NCBI GenBank assembly: GCA_020137815.1 | Contig: CM035350.1 | Span: 744,001 to 808,000, forward strand | DNA: 64,000 nt | DNA from: Hormiphora californensis | Lineage: Eukaryota; Animalia; Ctenophora | Direction of reading: 5' to 3' | Shown: piece by piece, positions 9,172 through 50,700 of the stretch | Position numbering within the stretch: the stretch's first letter is position 1 | Layout: every line of letters starts with the position of its first letter | Notes under the pieces: model-generated | The model's input: only the letters and a program-made list of their open reading frames with translations | Told to the model about the DNA's origin: nothing | The model's database searches: none | Position numbers and translations under genes: made by a program

Positions 9172-9260
<89 letters not shown>

Positions 9261-10232: not shown

Positions 10233-10271
<39 letters not shown>

Positions 10272-21500: not shown

Positions 21501-24500
21501 TTTATCCAGCCTGACCAGCCAAGATATGCAGGGGATCTAGTGAATGCGATGGAGGCAAGTGGTGCCAGGGTACCTACAGAACTGGAGCTACTGTGGAAGG
21601 ATTATGTAGATGAGCAGAAGGAGATGGGTCTATCAGTGGAGAAGAACAAGGGATTCAGTGGTCGAGGGTTTAAATTTACTGAGGAGGAGACTATGATGTT
21701 TAGCGAGAAGAAGCAGTTACAAAAGTTCCAACTTGGTATGATATAACCACACTACCCGGATCATTTCTCTACTCATTACTATTAGACTTAAACTCTTCCA
21801 TCACACTAAACACTTCAACTCTCCCATCTCCACTACACCTCTCTTCCTCTGCCAGGTCTACAGGACAGTGACGAGGAGGACCTAATGTCACAGAAACAGG
21901 ATGAGTTGGAGTGTGCTATTGAGGCTATCATGGGAGGGAAGGGGAAGCACAAACTAGCTCTAACTGAGAAAGCATCCACACCTCCCCCTCCCAAATTCGA
22001 ATTGAGGAGAGGCAAAACAATTGAGGTAAGAGGTTAAAAGATAAAAGATAATAATACAGTTGAAAATCAGTTTCAGTCCTCATCTGCTCATCTAGAGCAA
22101 GACGAGGTGATTGTCTATCTGCTCATCTAGAGCTATATATTGTTTTCTATACATGTTGTCCGTTCCTTTCCCCTTTCTCACACAGTACCTTATTACACCC
22201 CTCACTGCTGCTACTGGTCAGACTCATCTTCCTTTTGAAGGATAACTTCAGCCACTTCCTGAACTTCTGGTTGACAATGTAGTATACCCAGGGATTGGTG
22301 AGCATGTTGAGACATGCCACGTAGTTGTATATGTAGATCTCATTCCCGCCGTATCTAATGGAACTCCTGATCCCAAGAGGTAGGTAGGAGACTAGGAAGA
22401 TGGAAGACACGAGGACCACAATAGCAACACTTCTACTGGGTCGTTTAGCACTGGCCCTTCTAGCGCTGGCTAGCAGTATAGACAGTAGGAAGGTGTTGCA
22501 TCCTATTAGACCGATTATTGGGAGACCCATAGTTAGACCAAGAGATACCCTCCAGGCGATGGTAACAGACTGGTAGAAATATGATGTGCATATAAAACTC
22601 TCAGGTCTAAAGTAGTTAGCTAGCCCTGTAACATGAGGCAGGAAGCAGAGGTATAACGCTACTATAACAATCACTGCCACACCTCCCCACCGGGTCTTTG
22701 GCCCAAAGTTCCTTCTCGCGTCCTTGGGTTGTTTGAGTATCATAGCCCGGTAGACGGTTAGAGTAGTAGTTAGTAGGATCTCAACGTAGAGGGGGAGGTT
22801 GGAGAATGACCCGACTAGCCAGCAGATAATAGAGCCCAGGGGCCAGTGCCCCACTATTAGGACAGCCAACATGGGGATATACTTGGTTATCACTAACAGG
22901 ATATCCACCACTGCTATCAGCTCTAGTAGGAAGGTGGTTGTGGCATCTAGCTTGAGGGCCTTGTACCGGAGAGAGCTGTACAGAACCACACTGTTACCTG
23001 GGGAGGAGGGGGTGTTAGCATGTTAACCCTGTGGTTTTACTGTGGTTATAGGAGCAGTGATCACACATGTCTACTTCATGGTATATAACAGGTAAGGGCG
23101 CGATCACACCAAGATCTTCGAAAGAATTCTTTCGAAGCACCAAACCCAATCACACCAAAAAGCTTCGTTTGGTTCTTGCACGCGGATGGCTGTTGTATAC
23201 TTTTCACTGTCGTCAGAGTCAAAAACTAGCAATAGACATACGTGCGCAAGAACCAAACGAAGCTTTTTGGTGTGATTGGGTTTGGTGCTTCGAAAGAATT
23301 CTTTCGAAGATCTTGGTGTGATCGCGCCCTAACACATGTCATGGTAGTACAGTACCCGCATCGTATCTCGCATCGTTTAGCCGTTATTTGCATATTTATG
23401 ATACCTGTTTACAAAAATTACAAAAATCCTGAGAAACTAGACTAAAAAACAAAGGAAATTTGTTTGGAACACCCGTGGCCTTTTGTCGATACTTGACGCT
23501 GCGTGAAATGCACCCTTCGTCAGAGCAAGACGAGGAAGAGTGAGAGAGAGAGTGTGCGTGACGTGTGTTAGAACTTGGAGAGATGGCACAACGATACCTA
23601 GTAGCTCAGATTATGGGTGCATTTCACGCAGCGTCAAGTATCGACAAAAGGCCACGGGTGTTCCAAACAAATTTCCTTTGTTTTTTAGTCTAGTCACACA
23701 TGTCTATTTCATGGTATATAATAGGTAACACATGTCATGGTAGTACTCACCTGCTACCCCAAGGAAGACTATTAGGAAGTTGAGGGTGATGAGGATACCC
23801 ATAGTTGCATCAGATAGACCATGGTAGTCTGCTATACTGACATTAAACGTGCTTTCATTAACAGAGAATAGAGCCATGATGGAACTAGGGAGTGTTAGGT
23901 GTTAGTATAGTTTGTTAAAATCTAGTAACTAGGAATAATTTAGGGCACTACGACTAGTCAGCAGCAATAGTAGGCATGTGTTGTTGAAGGAATTCACAAC
24001 TAACGCAATATTAAAATATTTGGTATATATGGGTGCCGTGGAACATGTCAACATGTTGTACAGTGGTAGGGGAAGCTACATAGTTTCATGTAGCCTGATG
24101 TTGGCATGAGGCGGCCTGTATACCTCAACTGTATACTGCAGTAGTTGGCAGCCCTCGGAAGTGTACTAATTACAGCCTGTAATACTTCAAACAAAACATG
24201 CTATGAAAAGAGGTTGGGACAACAAGCAGACTAGACGTCACCATGAGCTGCGATCAATCTGATCAGATCTCTTCCAGATTTAGTTACCAAAATGCTAATT
24301 TTATTCACCCTTCTAGAAACGCTTTATAAATAGAAGTACCTATCTCTAGCGCAAAGAACTAAAGACTCATTTGCTGGATGTAAAAAGCTAGTCCATACCA
24401 TCAGCATATTGAAAAGAGGTGAAGACAGCTGACGCTTTTTTCAAACACTTGCACTATGCAAGTATGCAATTATACATGTGGCTACGTTTTAGTTAGCCGT

Positions 24501-27500: not shown

Positions 27501-28097
27501 CTATGCAGTGTAGCCTTATGAACACTGACCCCAAACCACAACCTTCCAATCTAACCCTGATCCTCTTTCCCCCAAACTATCACACATGGCAACACCCAAC
27601 TATTAACTAAACCCTACTCCCCACACAGATACAGGATCACTAGTAAGGATGCCATTGCTGCAGTCCAGGATTATAGTGAGTGTGCCCTGACCGTCAGGGG
27701 GACCTACTACCCTCCCAATAGGAACCCACCCGAGGGAGAAAGAAAGGTAAGGGCTGTGGAATAATTAGGGGGCAGCTGGGACAGTCTTAGAATGACTAAG
27801 ATGATAGTACAATGAAAATCAATCAAGCGGCTCTTGCTACACACACTAATTAATACACATGAACATTGCGGTATTATCTTAATTCTTAGGCAGCTGGTGC
27901 GTGGGTGTTGTATAGCTGTATTTTTTATAACCTCCCCTCCTCCTCAGCTGTATATCTGTATAGAGGGCCCCAGGGACCGGGCTATAACCCTGGCCAAGAT
28001 GGAATTGAAGAGGATGATCAAGGAGGAGTTGAACAAGGCCCAGATGTTCTCATTCGGAAGTGGGGGCAAGGCAGGGGGACGGTATAGTGTCTTGTAG
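15702..28097 (+). CDS. DDX46: DEAD-box RNA helicase DDX46/Prp5
   Basis: RS domain, DPLDAFM motif, [32 protein letters not shown]-terminal KH-like region ending GRYSVL. Exons 15702-15782, 15903-16555, 17969-18191, 18635-18745, 19150-19275, 19396-19563, 19766-20443, 20544-20657, 20957-21167, 21292-21735, 21856-22025, 24787-24988, 25220-25373, 27629-27746, 27948-28097. Confidence 0.97.
16224..16343 (+). repeat. Coding repeat, 5 x 24 bp (RRSSRSPP), in the DDX46 RS domain
   Basis: AGGAGATCTAGTAGGAGCCC(A/G)CCT repeated. Confidence 0.9.
16634..17814. mobile_element. Foldback-type non-autonomous DNA transposon with internal ~192-bp tandem units in inverted arrays
   Basis: TIR CCCAGGTCAAAATTGTTGA; 8-bp TSD AAAGAGAT (16626-16633 and 17815-17822). 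Units start at about 16727, 16919 and 17111, with inverted copies at about 17278-17650. Confidence 0.85.
22147..23877 (-). CDS. Class A (rhodopsin-like) GPCR, orphan, nested antisense in a DDX46 intron
   Basis: Exons 23877-23751 and 22997-22147 join in frame (325 aa). N-glycosylation sites, TM1 GN, WPLG..C, YR at the DRY position, P in TM6, NPWVYY and F(R)KW helix 8. Confidence 0.9.
23096..23329. mobile_element. PIF/Harbinger (Tourist-like) MITE
   Basis: TAA|GGGCGCGATCACACCAAG...CTTGGTGTGATCGCGCCC|TAA with ~90-bp TIRs. An empty-site paralog lies at about 23695-23746. Confidence 0.9.
23436..23694. repeat. 80-bp perfect inverted repeat (probable MITE remnant)
   Basis: 23436-23515 is the reverse complement of 23615-23694. 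Confidence 0.75.
25371..25487 (+). repeat. 27-28-bp tandem repeat reiterating a 5' splice site
   Basis: AG|GTAAG at 25374, 25401, 25429, 25456 and 25483. Confidence 0.9.
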
Positions 28098-28331
28098 TAG
28101 GGACACTGTGTTACAGGTACATGGTGTGTGTTGCCCTTTTTATAGACTGTGTGTCAGTCTGTGCGTTGTTCTGACGAGTGAGAGATGTTGTCTGTTGTCT
28201 GTTTATACCCACCCCCCTCAAATTAGTTTTATCCAAACCAGTAGCTCGGCTGTCGTTACGTTTTCAAATTCTTCACGCCTCTCCTAGAAACAACCAACTC
28301 TATCCAAACACCAAACCCCACATGTAAACCC

Positions 28332-28359
28332 AATAAAGCACACGTCAATTAATTTTATT
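28332..28359. terminator. Back-to-back polyadenylation signals of two convergent genes
   Basis: AATAAA on + at 28332-28337 and AATAAA on - at 28359-28354, between the DDX46 stop (28097) and the Ig-receptor stop (28588). Confidence 0.55.
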
Positions 28360-28587
28360 GGAAAACGTTGGTAAAAAGGTTAAAAATCTGTATACGTATA
28401 CTGATAAAAAGCACACACTCAAGGTCATCGCATTAAAATTACAATCTAGAATCCAAGTGCACCTCCTAACACATGATATAGTTTTAGTCTGCGTGAAGGA
28501 ATTTAGGTGGTGGGGGCATGTTTTTATCGGCACCTGGCCTGAGTCCAGCAGCAATAGGCTGCAACTTTCACTTTCTTTTTTCCATTT

Positions 28588-31500
28588 TTAGGTTTCTCCT
28601 CCTTCTTCTCCTTCTGCTTCTTCTTCTTGCCTGTAGCGGGTGGGGTCCCTGAAGACACCATACCACCCTCGGGGAGTGGCGGGGGACGGGCTGCCCCAAA
28701 CTAGACCACTGGATTTGTGTTTCTCAGTCAGTACTTCTGGTAGGGCTAGTCTCTCGTCTGCAATGCACTCTGCCCAGTTGTAGAACACCCCTAGGGCCTG
28801 GGTCGTATCAAACACTAGCTCCTCGTCGTACTTCACCAGTATCAACTCAACCTTGGTAGAGACACATGGGCATTAGATCAGGGACATGGTCATGGATCAT
28901 GAGAGCATTAGAGGGACATGGTTTGTGGGGTCATTGCATGTAATGTTTACCATGCTGCATATATATCAAATGTGTTTGTACCTTTTTGGCGTGCGTGTAT
29001 TCTATTTCCTCGGGTGTGCAGGTCTGGATTCTCCTCTTGGTGTTATCCTTTCCGATCTTGTTGAGCTGTATAACAATGTCTGGCCAAGTAGCCAGCTGTG
29101 AGGGCTTGTTACCTAGCAACAGGAACACAGATCTCATCACCTGGTGGGGGTAGAGAGAGTTAGTTATTGGGCTGGGGGTGGAGAGTTAGTTATTGTGGGA
29201 GAGTTAGTTATGGTCTGGGGGTGGAGAGAGATATCCGATATCAGATAAATAGAGCTGGATTCATGACATGTTGAAAGATAGAGAGAGACAGATAGACTGG
29301 GGGGAGAAGCACAGTGTGTGGTTTTTGACATGATGCTGTATCATGTACACATAGCTTGGCAAGTGTCAGAATGCTTGTTAGCACACACAGAGTTCTTGTT
29401 AAAAACAGTAAACAGAGTGTCACAAGCTTTTAAAAAACATGAGATCTTCTCTCTCAACTAACCTGAGTAACAACATCGGGAGGGCGATTGTAACTTTTCA
29501 GAATGGCAATGGTCTGTTGAGAGAGTTTCTGAACTTCAAGTGCCGCTCTCTGGATCCTTTGGAGCTTCTTCAGTAGAACCTATAACACACAGGGGGAGGT
29601 GTTAGAGATGCTGTTGGGGCTCATACACATGCATGTGATATGACTGTATGTAACTGTATGTGATATTGAATGAGTGTTATTGAGTGAGAAGGACAAGGAG
29701 GGAGGGCTGTTACATAGAACCGGCTGCCCTGCCGAGACACACCGAGGGGGGAGCTGGGGATAGCGTTTTGCCCACACATCTTTCAGCATGGTTGGTAACA
29801 TAGTGCTACCTTTCCCTCTCTTATTTGGGGGCTAAATTGCGCCTTTTTCTTTACATCATCCTCCAGCATATCAAGAGTGCACTCTAGTGCTCCAATCCTC
29901 CTTCCTAGGGGACCCCCCGGTGTCTCTCGGCGTATTGGACGGCCCGCTCTAACATAGTACTTTAGTACACTGCTAGCAGCCCGCGGATCCCTCCTCCTTC
30001 TCCCTCCTCTTCTTCTAGTGTGTGATCTCTGAAGGGTGGGGTGTTAGTGAGATGGGGGGTTATTATTATACCTGAGCCTCCAGTAACTCCACAGCCAGCA
30101 GTGTTTCAAATCCTCCCTTCTTGATGGCATGGATGGCTGCCTCTATATCTGCTATTCTCCTATCGAATGTAGCTCCCTTTAGTTGGGTAGCTGCCTGCAG
30201 CTGCTCATACAGCTTCTTGGCTTGGAGCAGGTAGTTCTCCGTACCACTGACTCTCTTCTTCTCAGCCTTGCTGATCATCGGTTTTAACTTCTTCACATCT
30301 CTGTGCATGGTAGCATCGGCCAGGTCCTTGTTTATTGTGGCCCTCTGTGCTCTCTGTAGGGCTCCATCCCTCATCCTGTTGGCAATCTCCAGCTCTCTGT
30401 CACTCTGGAGGGGAGACAACTAGATATGAGCAAAGGGTGTTCCCACTGAGATATGTTATACCTAGGAGGGGGTGTTTGAATTCAATGTTACCTTTGAGTT
30501 CTGAACGGAACTTTCAGCCTCAGTCTCTGCTGCCTTGGCTGCCTCGAACTCTCTGTCGGCTAGCTCCTGGTTCCGTCGGTGAGTGTCTATTTGGATTCGG
30601 GTGGCTGCCTCCTCCTTAGCCCTTGCCAGACAGGTCTCCTCTTCGAGAGCCTTGGCAGCTGAAAATAGTACAGGGTGTTATCTTTGAGCACAAAACACAC
30701 AATCTTACTGCTGGAGTTTTATTGAAAGTATTCCCTACCTGCTACTCGAGCTGCCTCTTTCTCAGCTGCCCTCCTTTCAGCCTCCATATTCTCTTCATAC
30801 TGCTCCCTGGCAATTCTCTCTGGAAAGTGGGGGTTGTTTGTTAGAAAGAGTTATTAGGAACTCAAGGTTCAGAAACAATTAAATCTTGTGGTCTGTCTAA
30901 TAGAAAACAGTTGAATAGTTTCCTTACCTTGTTCTTCCCTCCGTAACCTCTCCTCCAGCTCTCTCCTTTGTAACTCCACTATCCTGTCCTCCTCTTCCTG
31001 TATTCTCCTCTCTTCTTCCAACCTTCTCAACTCTGCCTCCTCTGCTTCACGTCTTATTCGCTCCTCTTCCTCGAGTCTAGCCCTCTCCTCAGCTTCTTTT
31101 CGAAGTCTCTCTTCCTCTTCTAATCTGGCATTTTCTTCAGCCTCTAACCTCAATCTTTCTTCCTCTTCCATCCTTGCCCTTTCTTCAGCTTCTTTCCTTA
31201 ACCGTTCTTCTTCTTCAAGGCGGGCTTTCTCTTCAGCTTCTAGTCGAGCCTTCTCTTCTGCTTCGAGTCTCAATCTCTCCTCTTCTGCTAGTCTGGCCTT
31301 TTCCTCAGCTTCTAGACGCAGTCTTTCTTCCTCTTCCAATCGTGCCTTTTCCTCAGCCTCCTTTCGTAACCTCTCTTCTTCTTCTAGTCTTGCCTTATCT
31401 TCCGCTTCCAACCTAAGCCGTTCCTCTTCGCTCAGCCTTGCCCGTTCAGCTTCCACTCTCAGTCTTTCTTCTTCATCAAGTCTAGCCTTTTCCTCTGCCT

Positions 31501-34500
31501 CTTTTTTCAATCTTTCCTCCTCTTCTAATCTGGCCTTTTCTTCAGCCTCTAGCCTCAACCTCTCTTCCTCTTCTAACCTCGCCTTTTCCTCCGCTTCCTT
31601 CTTCAGCCGTTCCTCCTCCTCTAACCGGGCTTTCTCTTCAGCTTCAAGACGCAGTCTCTCCTCTTCTTCCAATCTTGCTTTCTCTTCGGCCTCTTTCTGT
31701 AACCTCTCTTCTTCTTCAAGTTTTGCTTTTTCTTCAGCTTCCAGACGTAGCCGTTCTTCTTCTTCGAGTCTAGCCTTCTCCTCGGCTTCTAGTTTTAGTC
31801 TCTCTTCTTCTTCCAGTCTAGCCGTCTCTTCTGCTTCTAATCGCTGTCTTTCCTCTTCCTCCAATCGTGCCTTTTCCTCCGCTTCCAACCGAAGTCTCTC
31901 TTCTTCTTCTAACCTGGCCTTTTCTTCAGCCTCTAACCTCAGCCGTTCCTCCTCTTCGAGCCTAGCTTTCTCCTCCGCCTCTAAACGCAATCTCTCTGCC
32001 AGTTCTTTCTCAAGACGTTCCTTTTCCTCAGCTTCCTTTCTGAGTCTCTCCTCTTCTTCAAGTCGGGCCAGCTCTGCAGCCTCTTTCTTCAATCTCTCTT
32101 CCTCAAGGATCTTCCTGGCATCCTCTTCTTGTTTCAGAATCTCTGCCTCCTGCCGTCTTTGTTCCTCCAGTTTTTCCTGTAGTTCCTTCTCCGCCCTTTC
32201 CTTCTCCTCTTTCTCTCTCGCCAGACGGGCCGCTTTTTCTGCCGCTCTCTTTCGCTCTTCCTCCTCTTTTTTCAACTTCTCCAGTGCTTTCTCATTGGCG
32301 TAAACTGAAAGGAAAATGGCACCGTTACAATTAGAACAAACAAAACTTTAAAAACCTAGTTCATATTGCAGAGTCTTATCATCAAGAGGGTCTCATCATT
32401 ACCTGGATCAGTACCATTAACAGATACAGCTATATCAACCTTCTTCCTCCGTTTAGATCTCCTATACAGTAGAATCATGATGATGATTATCAGACAGAGC
32501 AGGAAGATAAGGCCAATACTGAGGGTTGAGTAGAGGACTGCATCCACTACGGCACCCGCCACTAACACTTGTATCTCCATGGAAACGGAGTTGAATCCAT
32601 TAGTTCCAGTACAGGTGAACATTGTGTCGTCCCCACTCTCCACTGGACTAATGAGTAGTGCACCATCCGATTGTACCTGGAGAGAGTTTAGAGACAGTTA
32701 GTTATCAATTCAGCCATTACTATTCAGATTGTGAAACATTGTTGTCCCCCTCTTCTTACCACATGGTTGAAGGTTCCATCAGTTTTAACTATTGGTAGGG
32801 ACACTCCATTCCTCTTCCAGGTCACTGCGGGGGTAGGGGTGCCACTAAACTCACACAGCAACACCGCTGATTCTTTCTCCTTAGTTTCAACGACTGGCCA
32901 GGTTCCATTCCTCCACTCTACAGGGTACCCCACCACAACAGTCACATCCTGGGCCTTACTGTACTCCTTGCCAGCATAGCTATTACTAGTTAGACAGGTG
33001 AAAACATGCTCTCTACTCTCGTTCAGATAGAGAGGGCCAATAGGGAAGCGGGATATTAGGGTGGAGGATTGACCGTTAGTACCCTCCTCTGTAGTCATAT
33101 CCCCAGTATATGATGCAGGTATGTTGACCCAGGTGACACTAGGCATTGGGGCACCCTGGGCCCCACATTCCACTGTTCCCACCTGGCCATCCACAACATA
33201 CATAAAATTATCAGATATGAAGTGAGCCTCTTCAAACACTAACACAGCTGTGGGGAGAGAGAATGAGTTGGGACCTCCCAATCACTAATATGTGATACTA
33301 CATACTGTCTACTGTTCGATTCTAAGTTCCTTCAACTTACAGCTGATAAAGACAGACCCACTGGCCATGGCAGTCTCGTGTTCATTGTACGCAAAGCACT
33401 GGTATAGTCCTGTATCATCAACTACTGAGTTGGTGATGGTCAGAACACTCTTTGTAGCGTACTCCCCTCCGTTAATCTTGTAAATTGTAGTACTCCAGTC
33501 CACATGATCTGGAGAGAGAGAGAGAGAGAGAGGGAGGTTAGCACGTTATGGACACCTCGACAGAAACGGAGTGTGTTCTAAATCCCATGATACAGCTGAA
33601 AGCTAGTGTGTTATAGGTCCCCATACATTTATCTGATACAGCTAGAAAGATACAGCTCTGTTCCCCAGCCCCTACTTACTATTCTGTTTGACAAGTTTCT
33701 GTCCGTCAGCATACCACTCCATAGTGACCGGTGGGTTGCTGGTAACCTCACACGTTAGGGAGAAGTGGTCCTGTTTCACCAAACTCTTGTCAGTTGGGGA
33801 GGTGGTGAATTGGAGGGAGGATACCACCCAGATAGGAGTTGACACAGGCACCTCGTCAGATCCAACAGAGTTCTCTGCAATACATACATAGGTAGCTGTA
33901 TCGGACATTGTGACTCTCTCTATCGTTAGGGTGTACTGAAAGAGAAGGTTAGGTTAAATTGTTTTAGGGACGGATTATGCACAAGAGTAGGGGTCGAAAC
34001 AATAAGTGTTAACTCAACTTTATGACACTCTAACCCCCATCACTTCTCTCCCATTATCTCTTTTCTCTCTGTTCTCATTACCTCGTCCTCACTGATGGTA
34101 AACCGTGGAAATGATGCAGGGCTATCTGTTATCTTCTGGTTGAGCCCCTTGTACCATGTTATAGTTGGCTGCTCCTCTCCATACACGCCACATGTAATGG
34201 TAACAGTGTCCCCCTCTGTCAGATACACATTCTTATCATTCCACAGAGTAGTAGGGAGGTTCCTGGGTGTTTCTATTGCTGGTTCAGTGACCACCAGGAC
34301 TGCCACCCTACTCAGTGCCTTGACACCCAACAACTCGTTACGGGCCTGGCAGGTGTACTTGCCCGCGTTAGAGGTGACAAGATGGTGGAGGATCAGAGAT
34401 CCAGTTGGTGTTATCAATGTGTTATCATCTGTCAGTGGGTCTCCATCCCTGTAGAAGAGAGAGAGGGTTAGAGCCATCTGTCGATTGGTAGGGAACTGGT

Positions 34501-35663
34501 ACTGGTACTGGTAGGGGGCCATTTTGTTTGGAAATGGAAAGGAGGTCTATAGTACTCACTTGAGCCATGACACCTCAGCAGGGGGATATGATGTGGGAGG
34601 GGTGCATGTTAGGGTTATCACCAGACTCCCTCCTGCCACCGTCCTGTTGTTAGGCTCCTCCAGGAACTCTGTCGTGAAATCTGGGAGGGGATATTCCACA
34701 TGTTAGATGCGCTGTCAGTATCGCAGAACAACTTATAAAAAGTACGGGTACTTTGAATCTTCGGTTGTGTACATATCTAGATTTAGTTCCCTCCCCCACT
34801 TACAGATTGCGTTGACCATGGTTTTCCTGCTAAGTGCTCGGTTATTCCCATCACTAGCACTGCACTGCAGCCACCCAGAGTTACCCTGAGTCATGTTCCT
34901 GATAACCAGAACATTATCACTGATCTCTACGTTACTAGGCATGTTCTGAAAGGTTGTCATGGTTACTTCTTCACGATGGCAGCTGTTGATCAGATTATAG
35001 AACAAGTTGTACTTGTACATTATGGGTACATGTACTGAATGTATAACTATACCTCAACTGCTCGATTGTCATTGGTGAATTCCCAACTGTATCCTATATT
35101 CTGAGTTTTCTGGCTCTCCGCCAGACAGCTGATGGTAGCATCACTCCCTGACATGACATCCAGGGTAGTGGGTGGTTCAGCTGTTATCTTTAGTTGGGGC
35201 ACCTCCTTGTCCTCTTCACTTCTTCTTTTTCTTCGGAGATCTTGTAACTGGGATCTCAGTGTTGATGTAGTGTGGTGAGGTGTCACATCACCACACGGGT
35301 CAGGTGGGTCACCTGGTGATGTGAACTTGTAGTGGCACATCTCGTGCTCACATAGTGATATCTGATCTGGCGATGTTCCATTGTCTCTCAAGGCGGCTCT
35401 GAGGGAATATAGAGAGTTTTAGAACCACACTAGAATTCTAGAAAGTCTTGTATTGCTAGGCAACAACACTATACTTACAGGCAGTGTGTTGTGTGGTCTG
35501 AAAACTGGTATGAGATGTCTCGGGCGGTAGAAAAGTGTAGAAAAAATATCAAGTAGAACATATCACATAAAAGTATCTGAAGATTTGGTGAGGAAGGGAG
35601 CAGGAAGGCAAAAACATACTCTCAATCCACTAGATATATGTCAACAAGCGTATAGTGCACAAG

Positions 35664-35753
<90 letters not shown>

Positions 35754-36403
35754 CCTCACTTTCTCTCAGTTGTTAGCATGCACTGTCTCCCGAGTGAGAG
35801 AGCTCTCCTTTGACCAATCACGATCACTCATCCCGGTCACGTGCCTCTCTCTAGAAAGCTTTAGTGGACACCTTGCATCGGCTCACATCATCTTGACCCG
35901 GACAATCCTAGCTTTTTGGCACAATGATGTTCACACTACCATGTGTACTTGCAGGGGCAAGGTGTACTAAATTTAGTAGGACAGTAGATAGAGTTTAAAT
36001 AACGTTGCTTTAGTATGAGAAGTTCACACCGATCGATTTATTGCAGTACCACTAGTGTGGTTTGGAAAGCACGTGATTCGCACACTCATAGACACATGAC
36101 GATGGAGAGAGAGGGAGATTGAGAGATAGAACCGGTAGGGAAAATGTATCAATGTAGGGGGAGATCGCAGCAGGAGCCTAGTAACGACTAGTATTCAGTG
36201 TATTCTAGATATATGTAGGAGCAGCTTAGGCAAATTAAGTTTCGTCAAACGCGTAGCGATCTATTTGTCAATTCAGAATCGGCTGGTTTAACAGCAAAGT
36301 CATTGTCAATTTCAGAAGTAAACTGATCAATTATCAAACTCTTATATAGTGGTTGCGTAGTGCGTACTACGGACAAAAGTAGAATCAAAACTCTGTAATC
36401 CAT
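28588..36403 (-). CDS. Six-Ig single-pass membrane protein with cytoplasmic E/R-rich single-alpha-helix rod and C-terminal dynein-stalk microtubule-binding-domain-like module
   Basis: Probable signal peptide MDYRVLILLLSVV (5' exons uncertain), furin-like RRKRR, six Ig C..W..DxGxYxC-type units (35398-32580), TM LSIGLIFLLCLIIIIMILLY followed by RRSKRRKK. Then in-phase exons 32304-30928, 30819-30739, 30658-30492, 30404-30072, 29579-29463, 29140-28982, 28851-28588. Confidence 0.85.
30930..32275 (-). repeat. 16-aa (48-bp) coding repeat LEAEEKARLEEEERLR, ER/K single-alpha-helix type
   Basis: About 20 units in ORF 30869..32275. Codons differ among units while the peptide is conserved. Confidence 0.9.
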
Positions 36404-41741: not shown

Positions 41742-44700
41742 TCAGAACAAGTTGACAGCCTTCTTGGCTCTGATTTGTTTCCACTTTGGCAACTTGTCGT
41801 ACTCTTCTAATGACATCCCAAACACCTCCAAAAAGTCCCGGTCCTCTAGGTACCTCTGAAAGGGGGAGAGCTGGTTAGTTGTACATAATTAGATCACATA
41901 TCAACATATCTCTTAGGCAGCCGGCAGGGATGTATCTATAGACGTTTGTTTAAATACATAATATCTAATAGTCAGAGTTTTTGTTATTCTCTCTGTGGCT
42001 GAACAAATGAACCAGACGGGTATAATGTCGCAACAAGTTTCGAGGATCTACCTCTTCATCGGGCTCAAATTTATTTGTTTAAAGTAGTGTTGAAAAGTTT
42101 GAAACACTACTTTAAACAAATAAATTTGAGCCCGATGAAGAGGTAGATCCTCGAAACTTGTTGCGACATTATACCCGTCTGGTTCATTTGTTCAGCCACA
42201 GAGAGAATAACAAAAACTCTGACTATCAAACATGAGGCTAATAAACAGTTATCCGATCACCCAACTGTCATAATATCTAACAGACAAAAGAAGTGATACC
42301 CTCCATAAAAGGACTGAAGAGACACCTCACATTTCCACGACTCACCTCTTTATTGACAACATCCACTCCATCAGGAACAATGTTCTTCACTAGTACATCA
42401 TACGGGTACTTCCTGCTGTATTTCTCTAGCTCCTCGTCCACAGAACTAACCAACACGTCCCCAAACTGGGCCACCAACTCCTCGTACGATTTACCACCCT
42501 GTAAAATAGGGGGGGGGGGGGTGATCAGCTTACTATAAGTATACAAAACCAGGTTACATGCATGGCTAGAGATAGGTATGTCAGGCCAATGCTCTAACCG
42601 CGGTTCTCACGTGAGAACAGGGTCACTGGTTAGTCCAATGATGATACTCTGACAGATGGGACTTACCGACCACTTCCTAGGATCCCACGCCTGGAAATGT
42701 CCAGTGAACTTGGGAGGTTCCATGCCTTGTTTGACAGTTAACATTTCCACCTCTGTCTCGTCCCTCCCCGAGGGATCATTGCTAATGTACTCCTTCGCAG
42801 CAATCAGGCTCTCCTTCTTCTCTATATCATTGGCACCCTTACCAATCCACACAAACAACTGGAATGGGTGGATTTAGATTTAAATTTTTTTTGGATGGTT
42901 AGTACTGATAGTGATTTCGGTTATGATCACGTGTTCATATTGCACGTGCATGCTCCTTCATAAAACTAACCGCTATTCCGATATCCAGTAACATTATATC
43001 ATCCTCTATCAAGTCATCCTGGTTAAAGTTATACACCTCCTCTGCATTGAACACTCCACACGCATTGCTAAGCTGGAAGAGTCGAGGTGGTCGCTGGTTG
43101 ACAAGACTCTCTAGCTCCAGCCCATTAGCGTACTCAGTTTTACCTCCCAGTGCTGCCCAGAACTCTCCACTCTCGTTCTCCTCCTCCAGCTCTACGGTAC
43201 CCACTGGGAGAGAGAAGAGAGATAGTTACTGGGAGTAGTTATTGGGGGATGGTTGGATGGAGAGCAGGGTAAAGTTATCGTAATACCTGGCTCGTTGATT
43301 CCTATAAGGGCGGGTCTGTCCAACTTTTCTGAAAGAATCTTTCCAGTGTGTTTCTCCTCTGCATCACAACCCTATAATAATAGGTTTAGAGGATGTTGGG
43401 GATGCACATCTCATATTCCCTCCCTCCCCCTCGGCCTAACCCGGGCCCACTTTTGGCTTTTGCAATTTTCTCTTATCATGCCCTCCCAAATAACTTACCT
43501 TACCGTACCAGATGAAGGTCTTGTTCTTGGTGAGGAATACAAATGAATCATTACTGTTTAGACTGCACGCCTTGGGCAGAACCTCTATCGTCCTAACGTA
43601 CTCATTCAAACACTTGATGTGGAAGAGTCTGGATGTAGTTGGCCCAGTCCCCACACTACCCTCCAGATCTCCCTTCCGGGTGTGATTGAACCCGCTCTCT
43701 ACCCCGCCCTGTAGAATGGTGATCCTCCTACCGAACATCCTCATGAAATGGAAGGGTTCCTTCCCCTGTACCACCCTGACTGTCTGTGAGCTCCACCCCA
43801 CCTCACTATCAATCCTAGTGGCATGGAGGGCTGCTGACCCCTTCTCATCACTAGTAGAATGAGATCCCAACCAGAAATATGTGATATAACTCTCGTGGTT
43901 GCGGCCTGGCTGTATGTAGGTGTATAGGATCACGTAACTGTCACCGTCCCAGAAGAACCCGTACATCTCAGGAGGGACATCCACCAACTCAAAACTCTCT
44001 ACCCTCCAAATCTGGGGAAGGGGATTGGGGGATTAGTAACACTTTTAAAAAGAGGGTCTCTAAAACACTGGTCGGGAAGAGACAAGAGGGAGGGGTAGCT
44101 ACCAATCTAAAGATCACGGGAGGGTGGTGTATACTACCTTGATAGTTCCACTTCCATCGTCTCTAACATCATCCTGCATCAGCTCCTCCTTCCTCTGCCT
44201 CTTGTAGAACCCACTCAGATCCACACTCTGCTTCTTGATCTGCCCTGGTTCAGGGTCCACCTTGGTCGGCAGGTTGACAGTAGGAGAGGGCCAGGCAGAG
44301 AAACAACTTCTAAACAGGTTGTCTTCAGCCCCCTCTACCACCCTACAGAGGGGTGTCCACGTTGGGTACCCCTTGTCGTTGATGAATTTCTAGGGAAAGG
44401 GAGATGATGTTGGGAACTGCGGAGAGGAAGGGGAGGATGTTAGGAACTGGGGAAATGGGGTATATAGTAGGGGTTGTAGGAAACATTTCAGGGGTTTGTA
44501 TTAGGGGTGGAGATGGTAACTAATTAATGAATTGGTAATTACCTGAGCATGCATGAAAGCTTGGTTTCTCTCCTGTTGTGTAGCACCTTTCCCAATCCAC
44601 GCGTACACCCCACTGTTCCCCATATCCAGTATAAAGGCGTCCTGACTATCCAGCAGATTGTGATCTAGTGGTGCCTGTCCTACAGGTGTGATCTCTACAA

Positions 44701-47700
44701 ACCCTGCCTCGTCACACACTCTGTACAGTGTGATCTCTCTAGCAGTCTGGTCGGCTAGTTCATCATCCCCTCCCTCCCCTGCTGATCTGATCAACACCTC
44801 CTCACCAGCAACCCTCCCCAACTGATCATAGAACTTCTGCCTCATCCTCTCATCCTCAGGGGATGCCAGCATCATGGTCCCCCTCCCTCCCTTCTCCTCA
44901 TCCCTTATCTTCCTCGCAAACTCCATCCCCTTTATCTTCTCCAACCTGCTGCAGTCTGCCCCAACCCACACCCACACTGCATCTTTAGTGTCCAACACGA
45001 ACACATCCCCCTCGTTCATGGAGTCCCAGTGAACCTTGGTCTGGGTGATCCTGATCTTCCTCCTGCCCTTGATGTGGTACAGTTTCTTGCGGTACTCTAA
45101 CTTCTCTACCTGCTGGAAGCCTCCATCAATACCACCCTCGAGGTACCTGATGTGGAGGGGTGTGAGTTGTAACAAGCTTCTACCTGACAGTGACCCCTTC
45201 CTTTTCAATTGGTTTCCCTTTCTTCTCTTATCCATGTATCTAGGACTAGTACAGCTACTTACTGTATGCCCTGTTTGAAGAGTGACTGGAAGCGGTCTGA
45301 TTCGTACTCCTGTACCTCCCTGTGTTGTATGGGTCCCCCTCCCAGACTGTCATCCAGCTCACAGGACTTGATAGCTGCACAACCCGCCTCATCCTGATAC
45401 ATAATGGGGTTAGAGGTTATAGTGGAGGGTATGACAATGTGTTGCAAACTTGGTTTGGGATATTGGATATCAGGCAATTGGGGTTTTTAATGTATGTGTG
45501 TCGATCTGTCGTGATCTAAACTTTAAAGTCTGTCCATTTAGCGTTGTATTCATACTAATGACCGTGGGATATTCATTTTTACGAGCTCTCAGTTCTGTAT
45601 ATTAGTGGCTGATATAGCGAACTATAGGGAGGGTAATTATAGTTCTAAAATGGTCCGATAAATGAGTGTTCAATTCGTGACGTACAGTGACGTGCATGAC
45701 AACAGAATACAGATAAAGAAAAGTTCTTATTTTCAATAGTTGGAATAATTATTATACCGATATTAAATAAATCATTGCACAATGAAGGGAGTCTTTGATG
45801 GTTCATTTTCCTATAGATTCACACATTCAGTGACCCAGGTGTCCCTCCTCTCGCAGTGCGAGAAGGGACTATTATATTCTTCGTAAATATTATACACTCT
45901 TCTAACTAAACTCCTCCTTATATTATGCACACATATTTAATCAATCCACTCTCTAGATAAAATATACAAGGCTCTAGACTAAACATTTGAACATCAAAAT
46001 TAATAGAACTACACCAGCACATTATTACAACACTCCTGAGTCCTCACACAATATACAACACGTCCATAAAGTACATCCGTTAGAGCAATTTACAAGACTA
46101 ATAGTAATATGTACAACTTTACAGGGCCCACTTTACACGCCGTGTTTAGTACAGTTTACTAACAGTTTCTATATCATCAGGAACATGCACCTGTCCAATG
46201 TCCATACACCAAGTATTACCACTAGGCAGCTGATATAACCCGGATTGTTACTTTATATTAGGACGGGGTATCTCCACCACTGTGTCTCCACTCTCCATCC
46301 CCCTTCAACTGCAGCTCAGGTCAATAAGATTGCTCTCCATGGCCTTCCTGATGTTAGCATACCTCCTAATGGCAGGGAACCTATATGCAGCCCCACTCCC
46401 CTTACCTCCTCCTCCACTGTTAGCGGTACACCGTGTTGATTCTGGGGATACCGACCGGGCCCTCCCTGACCCCACCCCTCTCCTCTGCACGTTGGGCTGG
46501 TAGCTGCCCCGGGGTTCAGGAGTGTACCGTTTAATTGGTTTCGAGTAGAGCCGTGATCTGGCAGGGTATGCGAACTGATCAAACCCATGATCAGAGAAAC
46601 ACCGAGACCTGGGTTCAACATATGTCTTGGTAAACTCGGTGTTGAGTTTATTGATGTTTTCAGCATTCTCCCTCGCCTCTCTGGCCCTCATTATGGCCAC
46701 CTTTTTCTCAGATATTATCCTGGCCGCCATGTGTAGAACTAGTGCCTTGAGCATACAGTTTTTATTGCCCACCACTGCAGGAGAGCCACACGTCCGGGCT
46801 ATAGCAGCAGCCCTGGTTAACACATCACCTTTTTCGGTGGCGATCTTCCTAGCAAAACCCTCTGCGAACTTGCTCATAAAATTACTCTTCCTCACGTTCT
46901 TCTCGAAGACCTTCTTTCCAAACTTCTGTGCAAAGATACTCTTGGTTTTGCTGGTGCTGGGTTTAATGTTAGGACTCTCATCTACAGTCGGATCTGGTTG
47001 ATCTGGACCCCCTGGGTTGGTACCCTGAACTGCAATGTTCTGACAGGAGGAGGTGATGGTCTTGCTCATCTCAGTCTGGGCATACTCCCTGAGCAACAAC
47101 CTCTCCAACTCGTCCAACTCTTCCTGGGACAGGGCAGGTGGAAAGTAGAGGTGTTGTAGAGGTGCTTCACGTAGCTGCAGTCCAACATGTGGGTTAGGGT
47201 AGAAAGGGGTAAAATGGCACACTTTCTAACGTTTTAGGTTCTAAAATACTCAATTTATACAGCAAGAAGAAAAAAAATTATATAGGCTATCCAATGAAAC
47301 GTTTTCCTTTCAGACGAGCTAAATTTTAAAATCTGAAAGTTTTATTTAATAGCTTAATTAATCAATTCAAAAAGTTTGGTAGGGCTTTTTTTGGAAATTT
47401 TGCACTGGGGTAAAATGGTCCAGCCAATAGCATTGCTCGATTTTTATCACGTGCCTGGTGTTGTTAGAGCACTGGGGTAAAATGGTCCATGTTATCTTCA
47501 GTAATTTCTGTTCTGCTGGACCATTTTACCCCAGTGTGCTGGACCATTTTACCCCAGTTGGTATCACGTGGTATTGGAGGCTCGATTTCATTGGTCCCAG
47601 GGTGAACCATTTTACCCCAGCGAGGGTGAACCATTTTACCCCAGTTTGACTAATTTGACAATTTAATCAACTTAATAGTGGGTTTTTTGAAAAATTTTTA

Positions 47701-50700
47701 TACCAAGTTTTAGAAGGATAAAAACCCTAACTGGCAGTTTTTGCAAAATTAAAATCGGCCAACTCAAACAGAAATTACAGCAGTTTTAAAGCAAAAATTC
47801 GGAACAGAACGAGCAGGTCTCCGCTGGAGAAAAAGTCACGTGACTACATGTAATAACTAGGACCATTTTACCCCATACATGTGCCATTTTACCCCGTGTG
47901 CCATTTTACCCCTTTCTACCCTATAACTAGCAGCGGTAGGTTATCATAGCGGGGTACTGACAAAGATAGCAACTGATAATATACATGTATAGAGAAACTA
48001 GCTAGGAGCAACAACAATTAGCTTTCTCACTCGGCATTTGAGAATTGAGATAGCTCTCTGTCTCCTTCCCATGATCTCTTAGTTCCTCTTTAACCCCCCC
48101 CCCCCCTCTCTCTCTCTCCTGCTGCCCCTCTGTACTCACCTGAATCATCTCGTTCTGGAACCTCATGCTGTTACTACTTCTCTCCAGTGCATCCACTCTG
48201 GCCGTAATGGTGGCCATTGTCTGTTCCTCATACCTCTGCAGGTTCTCTATTCTCATCAGCACTCTGTGTTCCAGATCCTCTAGTTTCCTAACCAGGGTAG
48301 CGTTGATATCCCCCACTATCTTTGTGACCATCTCACTGCGACCAGATGTGAACATGGTGCTGCAGCTGGCAAGTAACAGAGTTTGCAGTAAAGTAGAAAA
48401 GTGGTGCGGACAGAGGGAGAGAGAGGGAGAGTCTCTCTGTACATATGGGAACCAATAGAGTCGCGGCGTGAGTGGGTAACCAGGCAACCCCGCATCATTA
48501 GCTGTACTGTTGCCATGGTAACAACACGTGATCTACTACGCATTTCCGGTACACACAGCGTAGTACTTTGCTCCTTATGTTCTCTCTATTTCTCTCTTTT
48601 TCTTACCCCCTCTCTCTCTCTTTCTTTCTCTGACAGGGTCATGAAATGGTCTGTAACAAAACTTGAAGTAATTGCTCCTCTTTTCGTATTGGACACACAC
48701 ACGCATACTCTGTGGTAGGACTGAGAAGATAGAGAGAAAGAAAGATAGAGGGGAGAGAGAGAGAAAGAAAGATAGAGGAGAGAGAGACTTCTGGAGAGTG
48801 GCCTAGGGGCTATTAGCTTCTCCCATCCTCCTTCTCCAGCTGGTCTACAGACAAAAGTGGTTGCTTGTTTCATAAACGGATTTTCCAGTGAAATTTTCCC
48901 AAGATTTCACAAAGGATAAAGACTCTTTTCCCAAGAGAGTTAGATGATGTGAAAAATAATCCCAGGTCATTAATTTCTAATCACTCTGTGAACTTCTGTG
49001 ATGTGGTTACTTCATGGCAATTGGTATGGAAGTCACCACAAGCAGAATGGGACCGTGAGAGAGTATCTTACACACACATTTAGTTCAGGTCATTAGCTTC
49101 GTCGAAAATTTCCACAAATTTTCGTTCGAGGTTGTTTCGAAGTTTCGGATCGAATTTGGGGGAATTACAGTTTGGGATATTGTGTGAAGAAGTCGGACAT
49201 TCTCTACCGCTAAAGATAGCCGATAAATTAACCAATATGGGTATCAAAAACTGCTCGAGACGGGCTTCCCTAGAACTATTTGAAACATTGTTTAGAGATG
49301 GGTGACTATTCTTTGTGTGACGTGTGTGGAGACGAATGACCAATCAAAATGTCAGATTTGATGGAAATTGGAAATTGTTCCTGGATCCATCTCTCTTCAA
49401 GTTTGTCAGTACTTTACAATATGTCTGTCTGGCGCCGCGACCTATCTGAGCGCACAGAATCAAATGGGGTATGGCGCCGCCATACAGCAATATGTCAAAT
49501 ATTCAATTTCACATACCATTGAGGTGCTGGCTCCCAACCAGAAATGAATATGCCACTCATACCGCGTACTGACTTGCTGCGTCTGAGGGAGAGAGAGAAC
49601 AGGAGTTAAAAAGTTTCAGTTTCAACAAAGAAGAAGAATCACTGTCAGAGCATTGGCTTGACCTTATTCTCAGTTCTCGCACGAGAACTGTGGTCAGACC
49701 ATTGGCCTGACAGGAGAATCAGAATCACTAACTGCTTACTCACATGTAGAACGATGTAGCTGTCCCCTGTATAGAACTTGCCATACAGATCAGGAGGTAC
49801 AGGAATCACTTTGAACTTCTGTACAGGGAAGGAGAACATGATTAGATATTGGGATATGTGGGTCGTGGGATATGCTTTCAGGGACCGGGCAATTAGGACC
49901 GGGGAGGTTTATGGCCTACTGAATATTTAACTCAGCTCCCTACCTCTATCCTCCATATTTCTAATCCTGGGCTCTGTCCTACACCAATGAAGGCCTGGTC
50001 TACAGAGGTAGTTGAGAAGGTCTGAACGCCGTTTAGCTGCTTAGACACACCTGAAACAATAGCTGTTAATTGAAACTGCTAAATTTAAAACAATTAAAAG
50101 TAAAACGAGTAGAAGTTTAAATTAAATTTAATCGGTCATTTGGTGACGCGGCCACCCCTACACTAGCCGCGCGCAGCGCGGCTAAACGAAGCCCGCGAAG
50201 CGGGCTGAGGATGAGGGGATGGCATCACCAAATCGGTCATGTTCGTGGCTGTTCAGTAATGGGTGTTAGTATAATTAGACCTTCAAGAGCGGTGACCAAA
50301 TCCCACTCAACCATGATGATGGTTCTCAAGATATAGAACAAGTGGTGAACTAAACAATATGTATGGTGAACTGCAGTTCTACTTCAGTGCTACGCTTGCT
50401 CATTCCATATAAACAATTTAACAGGCGGCAGATAGACAGAAGGGGCAGACAGAGAAGCAGTTATGTGGAGGGCGGCACCGTGGGATTGCACTGCCTGGCG
50501 ACCCAATAAGGGACTGCACGGGATCTGGAGGGGGGATTTGACATGATCCTTATTACCTCCACTATCGAAGAGTCCGAGAGAGAATTCACTGGTAGACTGT
50601 TGCAACAGGACCCCCATGATAGCGCGACTAATAACGGAACGAAGATTCTTCCAACTAAATATATTTCCACAACCCTCAATATTACTAGAACGTGTTCTAA

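What the first reader, a model, noticed from the sequence alone, without database searches (positions are those of the whole stretch)
28588..35398. Ig-superfamily receptor linked by a long single-alpha-helix rod to a stand-alone dynein-type microtubule-binding domain
Seen: splice phases join six Ig domains, a TM helix, ~450 aa of (LEAEEKARLEEEERLR)n, a helical region and a C-terminus reading LSQQTIAILKSYNRPPDVVTQVMRSVFLLLG..ATWPDIVIQL..IQTCTPEEI..KYDEELVFDTTQALGVFYNWAECI. Established: this pattern (LxxxxIxELKSxxxPPxxVxxVxxxVxxLLG..W..I..YxW) is the dynein heavy-chain stalk MTBD, and ER/K repeats form stable single alpha helices (~0.15 nm per residue, so roughly 65-70 nm here). Inference: a motor-less adhesion molecule that tethers microtubules at a set distance from the membrane and couples them to a neighbouring membrane. 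If the host is a ctenophore, it is a candidate for the membrane-spanning links that join adjacent cilia in comb plates. I recall similar MTBD-like tails in some invertebrate non-motor proteins, but I do not recognise this receptor architecture.
Basis: partly seen in the sequence, partly recalled or inferred. Interest (0 to 1): 0.9.

Follow-up and report, generated by a model that had tools for sequence, protein, structure and literature searches.

The report
Adhesion receptor with dynein microtubule-grip tail
An intron-rich animal gene, likely from a comb jelly, is predicted to encode a cell-surface adhesion protein whose inner part is a long charged helix capped by a motor-less copy of dynein's microtubule-gripping fold, so it would likely tie the cell membrane to a microtubule, though that binding is untested.

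Summary
The architecture is real. A 16-exon, all GT-AG minus-strand model gives signal peptide, six Robo/DSCAM-type Ig domains, one TM helix, about 480 aa of ER/K single-helix-type sequence, a helical bundle and a dynein-MTBD-fold domain (profile E 6e-12; AF2 of the orthologue's tail pLDDT 96, VIA Z 12-17 to dynein MTBDs). Seven of 15 introns have transcript support; the TM-to-rod join has none.

Corrections: the gene starts upstream of 35398 and probably ends at 28484. Two one-base shifts hide a lysine-rich tail found in three relatives.

The tail module is not unique: 358 clusters carry it, often on TM or Met-Gly-start proteins (KY-like, CLCA, EGF, a Pleurobrachia receptor). None of 53 scanned has I-set Ig domains, so the Ig plus long-rod version is unusual. 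This scan earlier noted motor-less MTBD proteins in other eukaryotes.

Against dynein-like binding: three of four H1 residues of yeast's weak-binding mutant are uncharged here, and the H6 arginine is aspartate. The rod is more likely a flexible leash than a fixed ruler. Host phylum and any comb-plate role are unproven.

Best reading: a static membrane-to-microtubule tether, about 50%.

The parts
36340..36403 (-). Alternative first coding exon with the stronger signal-peptide-like stretch (candidate only)
   Evidence: Best 9-residue hydropathy 3.5 among 15 upstream ATGs; its phase-1 donor at 36339 fits a 19-nt mini-exon 35497-35479; no reads
35479..35561 (-). Exon 1 of the working model (ATG 35561, weaker signal-like stretch); its last 19 nt are coding in either 5' model
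   Evidence: Strong donor and correct phase into exon 2; hydropathy 2.1
34804..35398 (-). Exons 2-3: Cys-containing N-terminal segment, furin-like RRKRR (aa 83-87) and Ig1
   Evidence: 47% identity to P0003 over 96 aa
32760..34680 (-). Exons 4-8: Ig2 to first half of Ig6, I-set domains of the Robo/DCC/DSCAM/contactin type
   Evidence: Pfam I-set/Ig_3; best PDB hits Robo2 1e-23, titin, Robo1, DCC, DSCAM; the exon 6-7 join is implied by one X1 contig
32403..32676 (-). Exon 9: end of Ig6, single TM helix (about 32541-32464) and basic stop-transfer cluster
   Evidence: Hydropathy 3.37; donor CAG|GTAATG; no transcript cover
30492..32304 (-). Exons 10-12: cytoplasmic ER/K rod (16-aa and 8-aa repeats), predicted single alpha-helix, about 71 nm contour for aa 753-1234
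   Evidence: i+4 ion-pair excess z=+15.7 against 300 shuffles, period 8, no 3.5 heptad signal, no Pro/Gly; synonymous divergence of repeats; introns 10-12 spanned by P0002 and L001, intron 12 also by X1
30072..30404 (-). Exon 13: helical-hairpin bundle that takes the place of dynein's long stalk; the most conserved exon
   Evidence: 93% identity to P0003; helices H2-34, 37-50, 56-81, 84-97 in the orthologue model; shared by the wider family
28740..29579 (-). Exons 14 (29579-29463), 15 (29140-28982) and 5' part of 16 (from 28851): short CC1/CC2 stubs and six-helix dynein-MTBD-fold domain
   Evidence: intron 15 joined in X1, introns 13 and 15 in X2 loose ends
28484..28739 (-). Probable true C-terminus: Pro/Lys-rich basic tail ending in a PPKFL motif, interrupted in this assembly by two one-base shifts (near 28701 and 28556)
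   Evidence: P0040 matches three successive frames; K+R/D+E counts after the KHKSSG motif: P0040 19/6, P0003 17/4, L001 17/4, window as assembled 6/8; poly(A) signal at 28359

Best explanation
The locus is predicted to be one gene for a single-pass Ig-superfamily adhesion receptor whose cytoplasmic part is a predicted single-alpha-helix leash ending in a helical bundle, a dynein-MTBD-fold domain and a probably basic tail, and which likely acts as a static, ATP-independent tether between a microtubule and a membrane contact. Shown by calls: exon structure, six Ig domains, TM segment, SAH-type sequence, homology and predicted fold match to the dynein MTBD, no motor. Inferred: (1) the ectodomain adheres to a facing membrane or ligand, perhaps after furin removal of the N-terminal segment; (2) the rod is a semi-flexible, extensible spring reaching up to about 70 nm, not a rigid ruler; (3) with the sliding stalk replaced by a fixed bundle, affinity cannot be switched; (4) binding would be non-canonical, using the family-conserved basic H3-H4 patch and the lysine-rich tail rather than dynein's H1/H6 salt bridges.
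For: Fold: the profile of 80 family sequences hits dynein stalk/MTBD chains first (best 21 of 48 rows, E 6e-12 to 1e-4). AF2 of the orthologue's 249-aa tail has pLDDT 96. 31 of 31 listed Foldseek rows are dyneins or dynein-length axoneme chains. VIA top 10 of 50 rows are dynein stalk/MTBD, Z 12.2-17.3, e.g. 6l4p 123 aligned at 2.4 A. Precedent: VIA rank 12 is a 162-residue chain of a Toxoplasma intraconoidal microtubule structure (9ya2_L, Z 10.2, 125 aligned, 3.1 A, matching exactly the MTBD part). It is likely ICMAP2, which the paper places as a dimer between protofilaments with 8-nm repeat (PMC12819142 passages). Family basic patch: K/R at alignment positions 178, 181, 185, 186, 187 in 60/72, 66/73, 55/74, 59/74, 57/73 relatives, all kept here. 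Basic tail in 3 of 3 relatives. Membrane link recurs: of 70 listed hits >=330 aa, 13 have a TM segment and 20 start Met-Gly, many MGCG. The tail is 80-93% identical to the orthologue against 39-59% for the Ig exon matches, suggesting a conserved partner.
Against: The yeast weak-binding set K3116/K3117/E3122/R3124 (PMC4046564) maps by the alignment to S1421, Q1422, I1427, K1429, so three of four are uncharged. The H1 glutamate is acidic in 75 of 76 relatives but Ile here. The H6 arginine four residues after yeast E3197 aligns with D1508, and that position is acidic in 45 of 70 relatives. The orthologue's MTBD part has net charge 0. VIA rank 11 is a radial-spoke chain (7jtk_C, Z 11.3), so the fold also occurs away from the lattice. 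The TM-to-rod splice has no transcript support, and the only Ig-to-tail protein found, P0003, lacks TM and signal peptide. 37 of 70 family hits show no anchor. No binding, localisation or tissue data.
Confidence: 0.5

Rival explanations
1. The receptor is real, but its MTBD-fold domain no longer binds tubulin and serves as a protein-protein or self-assembly module, as the similar fold in a radial-spoke subunit appears to; the rod projects a docking site into the cytoplasm.
For: Loss of H1 and H6 charges; acidic H6; radial-spoke match 7jtk_C Z 11.3 over 152 residues; the module sits on unrelated scaffolds, 28 of 53 scanned being KY-like proteins.
Against: Axonemal dyneins also vary at the first H1 lysines (alignments); conserved basic patch and basic tail; a motor-less fold match within a microtubule structure.
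Confidence: 0.3
2. It is specifically the membrane-spanning link of ctenophore comb plates or other compound cilia: the tail holds doublets 3 and 8, the rod runs in the compartmenting lamella and the Ig domains form the interciliary bridge. This is a special case of the best explanation.
For: The CTENO189 preprint describes lamellae running from doublets to membrane and continuing as an extracellular bridge, with cilia about 350 nm apart; the word 'transmembrane' occurs 0 times in it. Two rods plus Ig arrays span roughly 115-200 nm, against a gap of about 130-150 nm (axoneme and Ig sizes recalled). Ctenophore leads: a nested GPCR's second Atlas hit is a mostly Ctenophora cluster; nested intronic genes are common in Hormiphora.
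Against: No expression or localisation data. Host phylum not shown. The protein is not CTENO189. The module is common in animals without comb plates. The geometric fit is loose. The preprint's 21-candidate table was not seen.
Confidence: 0.13
3. The gene model is wrong at the middle join: either two genes (Ig-TM and rod-tail) or a main isoform without TM, which would put the tail outside the cell or leave it soluble.
For: No transcript spans intron 9. P0003 joins Ig6 directly to the rod. P0010 suggests a relative has an intron right after Ig6, so a separate TM exon could be skipped there.
Against: Intron 9 is 98 nt with canonical ends and matching phase; the first Met of exon 10 is codon 378 of 458. 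In this genome the TM shares an exon with Ig6 and is followed by a basic cluster. P0003 skips real coding sequence that P0005 contains. Ig-to-tail linkage recurs in P0003.
Confidence: 0.07

Closest known systems
Dynein heavy-chain stalk tip (MTBD; Pfam PF12777; PDB 3err, 6rzb, 6kio, 6rza)
   Same: Six-helix fold with CC1/CC2 stubs; SxxxPP, LLG, W and Y/FxW motifs; profile and structure match
   Different: No AAA ring or long stalk; a helical-hairpin bundle precedes it; H1 and H6 charges are lost; the orthologue's tail alone has no Pfam MT hit
Unnamed C-terminal bundle+MTBD-like module of KY/transglutaminase-like, EF-hand, CLCA/vWA, EGF and MS4A-like proteins (Branchiostoma, Pinctada, Oscarella, Styela, Saccoglossus, Adineta, Apostichopus, Pleurobrachia)
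   Same: Same 220-aa module at the C-terminus (within 40 aa of the end in 59 of 69); often behind a TM helix or Met-Gly start and an ER/K stretch
   Different: 0 of 53 scanned have I-set Ig domains; their longest ER/K run is 134 aa against 493 here; this protein has Ile for the near-invariant Glu and sits on a long, unresolved branch
Toxoplasma intraconoidal-microtubule protein in PDB 9ya2 chain L (likely ICMAP2) and Chlamydomonas radial spoke chain 7jtk_C (RSP2 by recall)
   Same: Motor-less proteins whose solved domain matches the MTBD part of the model (Z 10.2 and 11.3)
   Different: No sequence match to the family profile among the 60 of 64 rows shown at E<=10; Z is in the range the tool warns about for helical proteins; chain identities are inferred
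Neural IgCAMs (Robo, DCC, DSCAM, contactin/L1)
   Same: Tandem I-set Ig domains and type I topology
   Different: No FN3 repeats; the cytoplasmic part is a long helix with its own predicted cytoskeleton-binding fold rather than short adaptor motifs
INCENP SAH 'dog leash' and myosin-10 SAH
   Same: ER/K-rich helix linking two functional ends (PMC4571873 abstract; PMC4183817 passages)
   Different: Longer, regular 8/16-residue repeat, net charge -65, membrane-anchored; SAH behaviour here is predicted only
CTENO64 and CTENO189 (comb-plate compartmenting lamella proteins)
   Same: CTENO189 has nearly the same length (1582 aa)
   Different: CTENO189 is a metalloprotease plus death-domain protein; CTENO64's sequence was not compared

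Membership tests
Dynein heavy chain | AAA+ ring and long antiparallel stalk in the same chain | tested here: not met
   The 1580-aa model has only Ig, TM, rod and tail; spliced relatives P0002 and L001 run rod to tail directly
Dynein MTBD fold (PF12777 tip) | Six-helix domain between CC1 and CC2 | tested here: met
   Tested on the orthologue's tail, 80-93% identical per exon:
Dynein MTBD fold (PF12777 tip) | Sequence homology to dynein MTBDs | tested here: met
   Family profile E 6e-12 to 2e-11; 21 of 80 alignment members hit Pfam MT at E<=0.01, the query itself does not; single-sequence search gave 7 of 8 weak hits to dynein
Dynein MTBD fold (PF12777 tip) | Charged H1 and H6 residues needed for strong binding | tested here: not met
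   3 of 4 H1 positions uncharged; H6 Arg is Asp; based on a profile alignment, not on a docked model
Dynein MTBD fold (PF12777 tip) | Binds microtubules | not testable with these tools
   Needs a binding assay
Single alpha-helix (ER/K) domain | E/R/K-rich, i+4 ion pairs, no heptad, no Pro/Gly | tested here: met
   66% E+R+K, i+4 z=15.7, no 3.5 periodicity; helical at pLDDT about 60-73 in a low-confidence single-sequence fold of P0003
Single alpha-helix (ER/K) domain | Monomeric stable helix in solution | not testable with these tools
   Leu+Ala is 27% of the rod, so self-association is not excluded
Type I Ig-superfamily adhesion molecule | Signal peptide, tandem Ig domains, single TM | tested here: met
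   signal peptide judged by hydropathy only, and two candidate starts remain
Type I Ig-superfamily adhesion molecule | One transcript across ectodomain, TM and cytoplasmic part | tested here: inconclusive
   7 of 15 introns have transcript support (6, 10-15); intron 9 has none
Type I Ig-superfamily adhesion molecule | Homophilic or heterophilic adhesion | not testable with these tools
   Needs aggregation assays
KY/hillarin-type proteins with this tail | Transglutaminase-like core and KY Ig-like domains | tested here: not met
   Absent from window exons and P0003; KY Ig-like domains present in 28 of 53 relatives
Comb-plate compartmenting lamella proteins | Ctenophore host | tested here: inconclusive
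   Leads only; no orthologue with a named organism was found
Comb-plate compartmenting lamella proteins | Comb-cell expression and lamella localisation | not testable with these tools
   Only assembled contigs were available

The most novel reading that the evidence does not exclude
This is the missing membrane-spanning link of ctenophore compound cilia: Ig domains form the interciliary bridge, the SAH rod is the elastic element of the lamella and a domesticated dynein MTBD grips the doublet. It would be the extreme member of an undescribed, widespread class of membrane-anchored dynein-MTBD proteins that couple receptors directly to microtubules.
Probability: 0.15. Interest if true: 0.9.

Novelty: new variant of a known kind. 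Interest (0 to 1): 0.66.

Why it matters
Adhesion receptors normally reach the cytoskeleton through adaptors. A receptor carrying its own microtubule-binding fold on a 70-nm spring would be a one-molecule membrane-to-microtubule link. The same tail occurs on at least 358 sequence clusters, with named members from a sponge to lancelets, and my literature searches found no description of it, so one binding assay would assign or deny a function for a whole family. It is also a natural test of what the dynein MTBD does when the sliding stalk is replaced by a fixed bundle and its canonical charges are lost. If the host is a ctenophore, it gives a concrete, testable candidate for the unidentified interciliary bridge.

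Tried and rejected
CTENO189 identity: rejected on domain content. Pfam on single exons 13-16 or on P0003 gave no MT hit; exon 15 alone gave 0 PDB hits. Word-indexed searches found 1, 1 and 6 relatives, none spanning TM to rod. The read search held only two runs, both contigs; neither covers exon 9, exon 14 or the shifted tail, and absence of cover proves nothing. L002 and L003 are short chance-like matches and were dropped. The single-sequence fold of whole P0003 had mean pLDDT 44.6 and was not searched. The family tree (100 domains, FastTree, midpoint root; 17 of 117 matches left out as cluster-mates of kept rows) did not place the protein; deep supports were low. The wide VIA search never ran. 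No complex prediction was sent: no tubulin partner was available. No whole genome is held. Literature: ten searches found no paper on this architecture or module. 'MTBD-like' hits concern TTLL11. PMC3495828 has no hillarin or KY mention. PMC5549309 was irrelevant. PMC2111786 gave only a reference-list match. Three paper look-ups, for the 2012 MTBD-microtubule structure paper and a radial-spoke structure paper, were not held. Scan look-ups by place, sequence and relatives were empty.
Full report
Observation. The region lies on the minus strand. Joining exons at canonical sites gives a 16-exon model, 35561 to 28588, with GT-AG at 15 of 15 introns (80-171 nt, except 492 and 322) and an open frame of 1580 aa, 181 kDa. 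It holds six Ig domains, marked by six Cys pairs and by Pfam Ig matches in exons 2-9. Their best solved relatives are Robo, titin, DCC, DSCAM and contactin. A hydrophobic helix (peak 3.37 at aa 709-727) is followed by RRSKRRKK.

Two corrections to the ends. ATG 35561 gives a modest signal-like stretch; ATG 36403 gives a stronger one and can join through a 19-nt mini-exon. No read decides between them. At the 3' end, the orthologue P0003 continues in two other frames. P0040, an unbroken near-identical ORF, matches the window in three successive frames, with one-base shifts near 28701 and 28556 and a stop at 28486-28484. The spliced contig L001 ends the same way. The real tail is therefore probably lysine/proline-rich (K+R 17-19 against D+E 4-6 in 3 of 3 relatives), not acidic. 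No read covers this stretch in the window's own species, so a true species-specific double shift is not excluded.

One gene or two. Seven of 15 introns have transcript support. Contigs of the poly(A) run X1, at or near 99% identity, join introns 12 and 15 and imply intron 6. Loose ends of the related run X2 show introns 11, 13 and 15. The protein fragment P0002, which reads as a spliced product, spans introns 10-14, and L001 spans 10-15. Intron 9, from TM to rod, is not covered. Against a split: it is 98 nt, canonical and in phase, and exon 10 has no Met until codon 378 of 458. P0003 links Ig domains, rod and tail in one chain but lacks the TM. It also skips coding sequence that P0005 contains, so it is an incomplete model. 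P0010 suggests a relative has an intron just after Ig6. I put a wrong middle join at about 7%.

The rod. Residues 753-1234 are 40% Glu, 27% Arg+Lys, 27% Leu+Ala, with no Pro or Gly. Opposite charges are in excess at i+4 (z=15.7 against 300 shuffles) and i+3 (z=4.5), the period is 8, and there is no heptad signal. That is the sequence signature of a single alpha-helix. The 18 full 16-aa units are 87% alike as protein but 43% at third codon positions, so they are old and selected. The contour is about 71 nm, but a worm-like chain with a recalled persistence length of 15-22 nm gives 41-47 nm rms. SAH domains unfold below 30 pN and allow variable separation (PMC4183817, passages). The ER/K run is 493 aa here and 369 aa in P0003. 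A leash fits better than a ruler; INCENP is the precedent (PMC4571873, abstract and outline).

The tail is a dynein-MTBD homologue. All tail tests used the orthologue P0003, 80-93% identical per exon, because the window's exons are separate. A single-sequence search gave 7 dynein hits among 8, all weak, and the Atlas gave 24 of 30 feature hits in PF12777 clusters at score 0.90, a lead only. A profile of 80 relatives, none known to be a dynein, put dynein stalk/MTBD chains in the best 21 of 48 rows, from E 6e-12. 21 of the 80 hit Pfam MT; the query did not. AlphaFold2 gave pLDDT 96: four helices, then CC1, H1-H6 and CC2. Foldseek listed 31 rows, all dynein or dynein-length axoneme chains, only one at E<=0.001. 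VIA-align ranked ten dynein stalk/MTBD structures first (Z 12.2-17.3), then two non-motor chains (11.3, 10.2), then fell to 7.7.

The module is widespread. The 249-aa tail found 358 clusters at E<=0.001, of which 150 were listed. Of 53 longer hits scanned, 28 are KY-like, 3 CLCA/vWA, one each EF-hand, CD20-like, EGF-laminin, ephrin-receptor-like and MT-only, and 17 have no family; none has I-set Ig. Named members come from Oscarella, Pleurobrachia, Adineta, Pinctada, Apostichopus, Saccoglossus, Styela and Branchiostoma. Of 70 listed hits of 330 aa or more, 13 have a TM segment, 20 begin Met-Gly and 37 show neither; these rows are related and not independent. So 'membrane anchor, charged spacer, MTBD-like end' recurs, including in a Pleurobrachia receptor. 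What stands out here is the IgCAM ectodomain and a rod more than three times longer than any other hit (at most 134 aa). The 208 unlisted hits were not seen. Earlier notes of this scan report motor-less MTBD proteins in Naegleria, foraminifera and other eukaryotes (unchecked).

Does it bind microtubules? Evidence is mixed. Dynein binds through H1, H3 and H6, and stalk registry sets affinity (PMC6629372, passages). The yeast weak-binding mutant changes K3116, K3117, E3122 and R3124 (PMC4046564, passages). In the alignment these fall on S1421, Q1422, I1427 and K1429. The glutamate is acidic in 75 of 76 relatives, so its loss is specific to this orthologue group. The H6 arginine (mouse R3382 is named as a key residue in PMC6125590, one passage; its equivalence to the yeast residue is recalled) aligns with D1508 and is acidic in 45 of 70 relatives. 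Canonical high-affinity binding is therefore unlikely. On the other side, an H3-H4 basic patch is kept in 74-90% of relatives and here, and the tail is basic. A non-motor chain in a Toxoplasma microtubule structure matches the same part of the model; it is likely ICMAP2, described as a dimer between protofilaments whose loss separates the two microtubules (PMC12819142, passages). The chain's identity is my inference, and the paper's accession order conflicts with the PDB title. A radial-spoke chain shows the fold can also serve off the lattice. Both Z values lie in the range the tool flags as uncertain for helical proteins.

Host and comb plates. The host is an animal with a compact genome. 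A ctenophore is likely but not shown: a nested GPCR's second Atlas hit is a mostly Ctenophora cluster, among hits from many phyla at the same score; nested genes are frequent in Hormiphora (PMC8527503, passages); the GPCR's look is recalled as ctenophore-like. The tree did not place the protein. The CTENO189 preprint (parts 1-2 of 6, passages and Discussion) describes lamellae from doublets 3 and 8 continuing as an extracellular bridge, with cilia 350 nm apart, and names no transmembrane component. CTENO189 itself is a different protein. Its supplementary list of 21 candidates was not seen and may bear on this. The geometry is compatible but loose, and nothing ties this gene to comb cells.

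Verdict. The architecture is real and I found no description of it in ten literature searches of an open-access library. It is a member of the MTBD fold family and of an undescribed widespread tail family; it is not a dynein. It most likely works as a static, elastic membrane-to-microtubule tether with non-canonical binding (0.5, a figure that includes the comb-plate special case at about 0.13-0.15). A non-tubulin scaffold role is the main rival (0.3). Novelty: new variant of a known kind. Interest 0.66.

Noticed in passing
PDB 9ya2 chain L: A Toxoplasma intraconoidal-microtubule chain, likely ICMAP2 (162 resolved residues, about 10% of 1678), matches the MTBD part of the model at Z 10.2; the paper's main text has 0 occurrences of 'MTBD'. 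The PDB title says ICMT1 while the paper's accession order implies ICMT-2, so ICMAP4 is not excluded.
   Followed up: partly
PDB 7jtk chain C: A Chlamydomonas radial spoke chain (residues 437-593; RSP2 by recall) matches bundle plus MTBD at Z 11.3.
   Followed up: no
P0067, P0048/P0171, P0059, P0035: A second clade of single-pass receptors with Cys-rich ectodomains, repeated helical bundles and the same tail; P0067 is from Pleurobrachia bachei.
   Followed up: partly
P0113, P0070, P0020, P0107, P0106, P0026/P0033/P0039: CLCA/vWA, EGF-laminin, ephrin-receptor-like and MS4A-like membrane proteins that end in the same module.
   Followed up: partly
window 28702-28701 and 28557-28556: Both one-base shifts fall at third positions of four-fold codons, as if two alleles of a silent SNP were written side by side (inference).
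   Followed up: partly
window 22150-23022 (-): Single-exon rhodopsin-family GPCR on the opposite strand between exons of a DEAD-box (DDX46-like, name recalled) gene.
   Followed up: partly
window 27626-28101 (+): Last exons of a gene converging on this one (probably the DEAD-box gene); its 201-nt intron is spliced in both runs.
   Followed up: partly
window 35220-35234 (-): Furin-like RRKRR between a Cys-containing N-terminal segment and Ig1, suggesting a cleaved prodomain; only loosely basic in P0003.
   Followed up: no
window 12676-14409 (+): 578-aa acidic ORF with tandem EEPEFAAFSEE repeats and DDFADF motifs, aftiphilin-like by recall; no Pfam hit.
   Followed up: no
window 978-11920 (+) and 42280-49908 (-): TAF1-like gene (DUF3591) and a gelsolin/villin-like gene.
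   Followed up: no
window 57681-58432 and 61366-62435: Two related GC-rich repeat blocks in opposite orientation, probably mobile-element remnants.
   Followed up: no
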